Source of the DNA: Escherichia coli
GTDB lineage: Bacteria > Pseudomonadota > Gammaproteobacteria > Enterobacterales > Enterobacteriaceae
Reading direction: 5' to 3' (one strand)
Assembly (NCBI RefSeq): GCF_017348835.2
Contig: NZ_CP071375.1
Length of the DNA: 64,000 nucleotides
Shown: in pieces, positions 59,885-59,935 of the stretch
How the letters are laid out: every line of letters starts with the position of its first letter
Position numbering within the stretch: position 1 is the stretch's first letter
Position numbers and translations under genes: made by a program
Notes under the pieces: generated by a model
Seen by the model: the letters and a program-made list of their open reading frames with translations, nothing else
Told to the model about the DNA's origin: nothing
The model's database searches: none

Positions 59885-59905
59885 TGGCATGATTCTTGTA
59901 ATGCC
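59885..59905 (+). promoter_or_regulatory. Putative sigma-54 promoter of pspG
   Basis: TGGCAT-N5-TTGTA about 30-50 nt upstream of the pspG ATG, resembling the TGGCAC-N5-TTGCA sigma-54 consensus. Confidence 0.45.
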
Positions 59906-59935
59906 TGCAAGAGATTTCATATTTGGGAGAGCATC

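What the first reader, a model, noticed from the sequence alone, without database searches (positions are those of the whole stretch)
59885..59935. Sigma-54-type promoter upstream of pspG
TGGCAT-N5-TTGTA about 30 nt upstream of the pspG start fits the -24/-12 architecture used by PspF-dependent psp promoters, consistent with pspG being a phage-shock regulon member.
Basis: partly seen in the sequence, partly recalled or inferred. Interest (0 to 1): 0.25.

Follow-up and report, generated by a model that had tools for sequence, protein, structure and literature searches.

The report
Known sigma-54 promoter of pspG

Summary
The motif is real. TTGGCATGATTCTTGTA lies at 59884-59900 (+), and 35 nt separate it from the pspG ATG at 59936. 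The window is E. coli chromosome (zur-DUF2713-dusA-pspG-qorA-dnaB). The promoter region matches K-12 MG1655 except for one SNP at 59906.

The same 17-mer is listed as sigma-54 ChIP-seq site OS40 (pspG, marked experimentally confirmed). It is also bound by RpoN holoenzyme in vitro (gSELEX) and has been used for PspF-driven open-complex assays.

The loose consensus is not enriched in the window (22 matches against 26.7 expected). A weight matrix built from 41 other E. coli sigma-54 sites ranks this site first of about 128,000 positions (17.0 bits; 0.26 expected per window).

All 80 pspG loci examined, from about 25 named genera of Enterobacterales, carry the motif. Conservation falls into three islands:
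- a PspF-UAS-like palindrome at 59818-59832;
- an IHF consensus at 59868-59880;
- the -24/-12 element.

The unusual -12 GT, shared with pspA, is kept in 75 of 80 loci. The dusA terminator, supported by covariation, sits between the UAS and the IHF site.

Verdict: already known, low interest.

Side note: a second strong sigma-54-like site at 25678-25694 precedes an accessory slipin-RlaP (RNA-repair) operon.

The parts
59818..59832 (+). Candidate PspF enhancer (UAS): TAGTCAAATTCACCA, an imperfect palindrome T(A/G)GT-N7-ACCA, at about -93 to -79
   Evidence: It matches 13 of 15 positions of a pattern derived only from the two pspA UAS repeats (pspA sequence). Columns T59818, G59820, T59821, C59830 and A59832 are invariant in 22 genera-level sequences. 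Mean information is 1.51 bits. A UAS-like 15-mer is present in 79 of 80 pspG loci, and 66-67 nt upstream of the motif in 73 of them. The literature reports one PspF UAS at pspG (PMC3709507).
59832..59860 (+). Intrinsic terminator of dusA (10-bp GC-rich hairpin plus TTTT), lying between the UAS and the IHF site
   Evidence: Found by the terminator scan. The fold gives -21.5 kcal/mol, z-score -3.1. Covariation in 17 Enterobacteriaceae: 95.9% of cells paired, 7 of 10 pairs with compensatory changes, 0 of 500 shuffles as good, and slid controls at most 58% paired.
59868..59880 (+). IHF binding-site consensus AATCAATAGATTA (WATCAANNNNTTR), at about -43 to -31
   Evidence: It is an exact consensus match, one of 5 in the window against 2.7 expected. 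C59871, A59872, T59879 and A59880 are invariant across 22 sequences. Mean information is 1.24 bits. IHF dependence of psp promoters is reported in PMC3709507.
59884..59900 (+). Sigma-54 core promoter TTGGCATGATTCTTGTA: -24 element TGGCAT (GG at 59886-87) and -12 element TTGTA (GT at 59898-99)
   Evidence: The weight matrix gives 16.99 bits, rank 1 in the window. The 17-mer is identical to ChIP-seq site OS40. It has the highest conservation in the intergenic region (1.62 bits against 0.27-0.41 just downstream). The motif is present in all 80 orthologous loci.
59911..59911 (+). Predicted transcription start (+1), give or take 1-2 nt
   Evidence: This is inferred. It lies 12 nt downstream of the -12 T and 19 nt downstream of the motif centre, the rule used in PMC4591121. 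That rule puts it 25 nt before the ATG, matching the paper's value of 25 for pspG. I could not reach any start-site mapping data.
59911..59935 (+). Short 5' UTR with Shine-Dalgarno GGGAGAG (59925-59931)
   Evidence: Sequence. GGGAGAG is conserved in Enterobacteriaceae. The one difference from MG1655 in the regulatory region is T59906 (A in K-12), at about -5.
59936..60178 (+). pspG coding sequence (80 aa)
   Evidence: Pfam PF09583 Phageshock_PspG, E 3.4e-25. RefSeq annotation.

Best explanation
The motif at 59884-59900 is the core sigma-54 (RpoN) promoter of pspG, a core-genome E. coli gene of the phage-shock (Psp) envelope-stress regulon. RNA polymerase with sigma-54 binds the -24 GG and -12 GT elements as a closed complex that cannot open on its own. 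The enhancer-binding AAA+ ATPase PspF binds the palindromic UAS about 66 bp upstream (59818-59832). IHF bends the DNA at 59868-59880, bringing PspF onto the closed complex. ATP hydrolysis then opens the promoter, and transcription starts near 59911. Under non-stress conditions PspA inhibits PspF. Membrane stress releases PspF, and pspG is induced together with pspABCDE.

Shown here: the sequence, its statistical strength, the three conserved islands and their fixed spacing, and the near-identity to K-12. Shown by others on the same sequence: sigma-54 binding in vivo and in vitro, PspF-dependent open-complex formation, and induction. Inferred: the exact +1 and the exact UAS boundaries.
For: - The motif and its coordinates are confirmed.
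- The leave-one-out weight matrix gives 16.99 bits, rank 1 of the window, with 0.26 expected per 64 kb.
- The window is E. coli. The region occurs in 5424 of 5426 complete genomes. It matches MG1655 from the dusA 3' end through the -12 element, with one SNP at 59906.
- The identical 17-mer is sigma-54 ChIP-seq site OS40 for pspG, marked 'C' for confirmed. pspG rises on sigma-54 over-expression (PMC4591121).
- RpoN holoenzyme gives a gSELEX peak in the dusA-pspG spacer (PMC8743547).
- Open-complex and abortive-initiation assays work on the pspG promoter with sigma-54 and PspF1-275. That paper states that pspA and pspG share -12 and -24 elements (PMC4641871).
- PspF binds the pspG UAS. The reported figures are one UAS and about 20-fold induction, and the deltaPpspG strain has a phenotype (PMC3709507).
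- Salmonella pspG shows 39-fold sigma-54 ChIP enrichment at TGGCATGATTTTTGTAAG (PMC3844500).
- All 80 pspG loci, from Escherichia to Yersinia, Rahnella and Brenneria, have the motif upstream, and 79 of 80 score at least 15 bits.
- Conservation peaks at the UAS, the IHF site and the -24/-12 element, with low conservation between them and downstream.
- The UAS-like element is found in 79 of 80 loci at a near-fixed distance.
- No sigma-70-like promoter is found on the + strand upstream of pspG. A covariation-supported dusA terminator lies upstream of the core promoter.
Against: - The -12 dinucleotide is GT, not the consensus GC. This is also true of pspA.
- The loose consensus alone is not enriched in the window.
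- I could not read the primary papers (Lloyd et al. 2004; Green and Darwin 2004) or any start-site dataset. The +1 and the UAS footprint are therefore inferred.
- In Salmonella, a promiscuous activator raised pspG transcript only 1.4-fold despite strong sigma-54 binding.
- This strain differs from K-12 at about -5, and the effect of that change is untested.
Confidence: 0.97

Rival explanations
1. The match is a chance or non-productive sigma-54 site. pspG would instead be transcribed from a sigma-70 promoter or by read-through from dusA.
For: The loose consensus is not enriched. Many sigma-54 ChIP sites in E. coli are not known to be productive promoters (PMC4591121). The dusA terminator has a short, interrupted T-tract (TTTTGCTGTT), so some read-through is conceivable.
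Against: No sigma-70-like promoter is found on the + strand between 59600 and the ATG. The dusA terminator hairpin is conserved with covariation. The motif and its enhancer and IHF partners are conserved in 80 of 80 loci, while the flanks have diverged. Published work shows PspF- and sigma-54-dependent expression and in vitro open complexes.
Confidence: 0.02
2. It is a genuine sigma-54 promoter, but it is driven mainly, or additionally, by an activator other than PspF, for example NtrC.
For: gSELEX with NtrC gave a peak in the dusA-pspG spacer at 58% (PMC8743547). Enhancer-binding proteins can cross-activate from solution.
Against: The conserved upstream palindrome resembles the pspA PspF sites, not an NtrC site. 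PspF binding and PspF-dependent induction of pspG are published. Microarrays in three species found pspA and pspG to be the only PspF targets (PMC3467454).
Confidence: 0.05

Closest known systems
E. coli K-12 pspG (yjbO) promoter, pspGp (Lloyd et al. 2004 as cited; sigma-54 ChIP-seq site OS40 in PMC4591121)
   Same: The locus and gene order are the same. The UAS, IHF site and -24/-12 17-mer are identical.
   Different: One base differs: T at 59906 where K-12 has A, at about -5. The strain also differs, being closest to pig isolate PE164.
E. coli pspA promoter (pspABCDE operon)
   Same: It is sigma-54 dependent and activated by PspF with IHF. It has the same unusual -12 TTGTA (TTGGCACGCAAATTGTA). 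A similar AAATCAA IHF-like box lies just upstream of -24, and the UAS repeats are related (GAAATTCGCCA and GTAATTCGCTA).
   Different: pspA has two UAS repeats and is divergent from pspF. pspG has one UAS, and the dusA terminator lies inside the enhancer-promoter interval. Reported induction is about 100-fold for pspA and about 20-fold for pspG (PMC3709507).
Salmonella and Yersinia pspG promoters
   Same: The -24/-12 motif has the same TTGTA, and the same UAS and IHF blocks are present.
   Different: Yersinia and Rahnella carry about 10-11 extra bp between the IHF site and -24, and about 22 extra bp between the UAS and -24. Their leaders are much longer. The S. enterica arizonae and diarizonae loci have a longer leader (68-69 nt) carrying a GC-rich palindromic insertion that I read, from memory, as REP-like.

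Membership tests
Sigma-54 (RpoN)-dependent promoter | -24 GG and -12 GC elements with fixed spacing (TGGCAC-N5-TTGCW) | tested here: met
   TGGCAT-N5-TTGTA has the correct spacing. The weight matrix gives 16.99 bits, above the median of 41 bona fide sites. The one deviation is T for C at -12, shared with pspA.
Sigma-54 (RpoN)-dependent promoter | Sense orientation, a short distance upstream of a gene, in an intergenic region | tested here: met
   The motif ends 35 nt before the pspG ATG on the same strand, downstream of the dusA terminator.
Sigma-54 (RpoN)-dependent promoter | Physical binding by sigma-54 holoenzyme | not testable with these tools
   Published for the identical sequence: ChIP-seq FAT 15 (PMC4591121), gSELEX 54% (PMC8743547), and in vitro open complexes (PMC4641871).
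Sigma-54 (RpoN)-dependent promoter | Upstream enhancer for an AAA+ activator, often with an IHF site between enhancer and promoter | tested here: met
   At the sequence level, a conserved palindrome lies at 59818-59832 and an exact IHF consensus at 59868-59880.
Sigma-54 (RpoN)-dependent promoter | Conservation of the motif at orthologous loci beyond that of the flanks | tested here: met
   The motif is present in 80 of 80 loci. It averages 1.62 bits per column against 0.27-0.41 immediately downstream.
PspF regulon promoter (psp) | PspF-type UAS resembling those of pspA | tested here: met
   13 of 15 positions match a pattern derived from the two pspA repeats. Alone this is weak: 3 matches in the window against 1.7 expected. 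It is conserved at a fixed distance in 79 of 80 loci.
PspF regulon promoter (psp) | Induction by psp-inducing stress that depends on pspF and rpoN | not testable with these tools
   Reported in the literature (PMC3068692 abstract; PMC3709507; PMC3467454). The primary paper, Lloyd 2004, is not held.
PspF regulon promoter (psp) | Transcription start about 12 nt downstream of the -12 element | not tested
   No start-site data were accessible. The predicted +1 is about 59911.

The most novel reading that the evidence does not exclude
The core result is textbook. The most novel reading left open concerns the design of the promoter.

(1) C at -12 is avoided in 79 of 80 pspG promoters across Enterobacterales (TTGT 75, TTGA 3, TTGG 1, TTGC 1). 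The same was noted earlier for pspA. This may be a selected signature of the PspF regulon that tunes the sigma-54 fork-junction lock for an activator that is constitutively active and held in check only by PspA.

(2) The dusA terminator lies inside the enhancer-promoter loop, directly next to the UAS. Insertions in Yersiniaceae come in steps of about 11 and 22 bp. Together these suggest phase-constrained looping, and possibly coupling between dusA transcription and PspF occupancy.
Probability: 0.2. Interest if true: 0.3.

Novelty: already known. Interest (0 to 1): 0.07.

Why it matters
The result confirms that a sequence-only reader can recognise a genuine sigma-54 promoter. It adds no new biology, because pspG's sigma-54 and PspF dependence has been established since 2004 and mapped genome-wide since then. 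The comparative data here make two modest additions. First, the non-consensus -12 GT, already described for pspA, is equally conserved at pspG. Second, they give a clear map of the UAS, dusA terminator, IHF site and -24/-12 element, with spacing changes in Yersiniaceae of about one and two helical turns.

Tried and rejected
- The primary papers and a start-site dataset were not available: Lloyd et al. 2004, Green and Darwin 2004, Thomason et al. 2015. I used secondary papers instead.
- The supplement of PMC3709507 describes the deltaPpspG construction but gives no coordinates.
- The loose consensus search was uninformative: 22 matches against 26.7 expected. I replaced it with a leave-one-out weight matrix.
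- Pairwise MAFFT of the pspG and pspA upstream regions mis-registered. It aligned the pspG -24 element with an unrelated upstream CTGGCATG in the pspF-pspA spacer. I compared the elements by eye and by pattern instead.
- My first regular expression for the motif used the wrong spacer length and failed. It was corrected.
- For the side observation at 25678, ARAGORN and Rfam at E up to 1 found nothing in the leader. Its folding energy is no better than shuffles (z -0.18). Words shared with the rtcB upstream region are not significant.

Full report
**What is there.** The window is E. coli chromosome. A 601-nt query around the finding matches 5425 of 5426 complete E. coli genomes, and it is 100% identical to pig isolate PE164. 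RefSeq annotates the region as zur, a DUF2713 gene, dusA, pspG, qorA, dnaB and alr. pspG occupies 59936-60178 on the + strand and encodes 80 aa (Pfam Phageshock_PspG, E 3e-25). TGGCAT is at 59885-59890, GATTC at 59891-59895 and TTGTA at 59896-59900. With one flanking T, the 17-mer TTGGCATGATTCTTGTA spans 59884-59900. Thirty-five nucleotides separate it from the ATG.

**Is it more than chance?** A loose consensus is not enough. TGGCA-N6-TTGC with one mismatch occurs 22 times in the window, against 26.7 expected. I therefore built a weight matrix from the 41 other intergenic sense sigma-54 ChIP-seq motifs of E. coli K-12 (Table 1 of PMC4591121), leaving pspG out.
- The site scores 16.99 bits.
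- That is rank 1 among all positions on both strands of the window, and above the median of the training sites (15.9 bits).
- A first-order Markov null yields 0.26 such sites per 64 kb.
- Leaving out pspA as well, the site is rank 2 at 16.26 bits.

Two further rare elements lie just upstream in the expected order. One is an exact IHF consensus, AATCAATAGATTA, at 59868-59880 (5 in the window, 2.7 expected). The other is TAGTCAAATTCACCA at 59818-59832. It matches 13 of 15 positions of a pattern I derived only from the two PspF UAS repeats of the pspA promoter (3 in the window, 1.7 expected). Each is weak alone. By rough multiplication, the ordered triplet within about 85 bp is expected around 1e-6 times per window.

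**Comparative evidence.** A scan of one genome per species returned 80 pspG loci. They come from Escherichia, Citrobacter, Salmonella, Enterobacter, Klebsiella, Raoultella, Kluyvera, Leclercia, Lelliottia, Trabulsiella, Pluralibacter, Yersinia, Rahnella, Biostraticola, Brenneria and others. In every one, the best weight-matrix hit in the 250 nt upstream is the same motif, and 79 of 80 score at least 15 bits.

In an alignment of 22 genus-level representatives, the invariant columns cluster in three islands:
- T59885, G86, G87, C88, A89, G91, T94, T96, T97 and G98;
- T59818, G20, T21, C30 and A32;
- C59871, A72, T79 and A80.

| Region | Mean column information (bits) |
|---|---|
| Sigma-54 17-mer | 1.62 |
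| UAS | 1.51 |
| IHF site | 1.24 |
| -11 to +1 | 0.41 |
| 5' UTR | 0.27 |

The conservation is therefore local, not inherited similarity across the whole region.

The UAS-like 15-mer is found in 79 of 80 loci. It starts 66-67 nt upstream of the motif in 73 of them, 88 nt upstream in Yersinia and Rahnella, and 74-76 nt upstream in Biostraticola and Brenneria. The IHF core ends 3-4 nt before the motif in Enterobacteriaceae, and 13 nt before it in the two distant loci (both Brenneria) that keep the strict consensus. In the alignment, Yersinia and Rahnella carry a comparable extra 10-11 bp between the IHF block and -24. The Yersinia/Rahnella and Brenneria insertions thus come in roughly whole helical turns. 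That fits face-of-the-helix constraints on looping, but this last point is inference.

**The -12 element.** TTGT occurs in 75 of 80 loci, TTGA in 3, TTGG in 1 and the consensus TTGC in only 1. In E. coli, 38 of 42 intergenic sense sites have GC at this position. [quoted passage not shown] That GT is equally conserved at pspG is a small addition, not a discovery.

**The dusA terminator.** A 10-bp GC-rich hairpin followed by TTTT (59832-59860) starts at the last base of the UAS and ends 8 nt before the IHF core. It folds at -21.5 kcal/mol with z-score -3.1. In 17 Enterobacteriaceae, 95.9% of cells pair and 7 of 10 pairs show compensatory changes. None of 500 shuffles does as well, and slid controls reach at most 58%. 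dusA transcription therefore ends inside the pspG enhancer-promoter interval. No sigma-70-like promoter is predicted on the + strand upstream of pspG.

**Link to experiment.** The window matches MG1655 from the dusA 3' end through the -12 element. The only regulatory-region difference is T59906, which is A in K-12, at about -5. The following published results apply:
- The identical 17-mer is sigma-54 ChIP-seq site OS40 (FAT 15, PSSM 10.7, EcoCyc status confirmed). Its predicted start is 25 nt before pspG, and pspG rises on sigma-54 over-expression (PMC4591121).
- Reconstituted RpoN holoenzyme selects the dusA-pspG spacer in gSELEX (PMC8743547).
- Open complexes and abortive products form on a pspG promoter probe with sigma-54 and PspF1-275 (PMC4641871).
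- PspF binds the pspG UAS. One UAS and about 20-fold induction are reported, and deleting the promoter region alters PspF dynamics and basal pspA expression (PMC3709507).
- Salmonella pspG is 39-fold enriched in sigma-54 ChIP at TGGCATGATTTTTGTAAG (PMC3844500).
- Yersinia pspG is reported to be PspF and sigma-54 dependent (PMC3467454).

**Mechanism.** Sigma-54 holoenzyme sits at -24/-12 as a closed complex. PspF bound at the UAS is delivered by IHF-induced bending, and ATP hydrolysis drives open-complex formation. Transcription starts near 59911, which is inferred from the -12 position. A 25-nt leader carrying GGGAGAG (59925-59931) precedes the ATG. PspA holds PspF inactive until the inner membrane is stressed.

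**Gaps.**
- I could not read Lloyd et al. 2004, Green and Darwin 2004 or a start-site dataset. The +1 and the UAS footprint limits are therefore inferred.
- The promiscuous-activator experiment in Salmonella raised pspG only 1.4-fold.
- An NtrC gSELEX peak in the same spacer leaves room for minor cross-talk.

**Verdict.** The feature is already known, and interest is low.

**Seen in passing.** The second-best weight-matrix hit in the window is CTGGCACGCTTCTCGCA at 25678-25694 (+), at 16.7 bits.
- It lies in the 528-bp spacer between yjbD and a two-gene operon. The operon encodes an SPFH/Band-7 'slipin' protein and an RlaP nucleotidyltransferase (Pfam 'RNA repair pathway DNA polymerase beta family', E 1e-96). 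A convergent Zeta-toxin-like ORF follows.
- The full spacer is present in only 1628 of 5426 E. coli genomes.
- The 17-mer is invariant in three alleles that are 94-100% identical.
- The roughly 300-nt leader is better conserved than the AT-rich upstream region, and it contains a T-loop-like GGGTTCGATTCCC.
- No tRNA or Rfam family matches the leader.

The other RNA-repair operon of enterobacteria, rtcBA, is sigma-54 and RtcR dependent. This site is therefore a plausible unannotated sigma-54 promoter, but I did not test it further.

Noticed in passing
window 25678-25694 (+), with leader 25695-25993 and ORFs 25994-27121, 27118-27918 (+) and 27951-28886 (-): A second strong sigma-54-like site, CTGGCACGCTTCTCGCA (16.7 bits), lies upstream of an accessory slipin (SPFH/Band-7) and RlaP (RNA-repair nucleotidyltransferase) operon, with a convergent Zeta-toxin-like gene. 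The island lies between yjbD and lysC and is present in about 30% of complete E. coli genomes. The roughly 300-nt leader is conserved and has a T-loop-like GGGTTCGATTCCC, but neither Rfam nor ARAGORN matches it. It may be an RtcR/sigma-54-controlled RNA-repair module with a tRNA- or Y-RNA-like leader. This is untested.
   Followed up: partly
window 59832-59860 (+): The dusA intrinsic terminator sits inside the pspG enhancer-promoter interval, directly next to the PspF UAS. The hairpin is strongly supported by covariation in 17 Enterobacteriaceae.
   Followed up: yes
window 60235-60345 (+), terminator hairpin 60314-60336: The pspG 3' UTR corresponds to the annotated K-12 sRNA PspH, a sponge of Spf/Spot 42 (PMC5145812). 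It is identical to MG1655 here and ends at a bidirectional terminator shared with the convergent qorA gene. That paper suggests PspH may have its own promoter. Whether the sigma-54 promoter also feeds it was not examined.
   Followed up: partly
L077, L078 (Yersinia, Rahnella) and L079, L080, L082 (Biostraticola, Brenneria), upstream of pspG: Outside Enterobacteriaceae the promoter has gained extra DNA. Yersinia and Rahnella have about 10-11 extra bp between the IHF site and -24, and about 22 extra bp between the UAS and -24, which is close to whole helical turns. Leaders are also much longer, at 59-190 nt.
   Followed up: partly
window 57379-58401 (+): The DUF2713 protein (yjbL/yjbM region) is 340 aa here. 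Its N-terminal extension holds tandem ~10-aa repeats of the DNKDA(N/T)KDKL type, ahead of the DUF2713 domain at residues 104-340.
   Followed up: no
window 6176-6253, 32578-32648, 42249-42319 (+); 32714-32863 (-); 30466-30662 (-): Rfam gathering-threshold hits elsewhere in the window: three naRNA4 (REP-derived) elements, STnc430, and the lysC lysine riboswitch.
   Followed up: no
L002 about 1455-1471 (MG1655 pspF-pspA spacer): The pspA upstream region contains a second TGGCATG-like stretch, CTGGCATGTTGCTGTTG, about 55 nt upstream of the real pspA -24 element. It captured the pairwise alignment with the pspG promoter. It is probably fortuitous.
   Followed up: no
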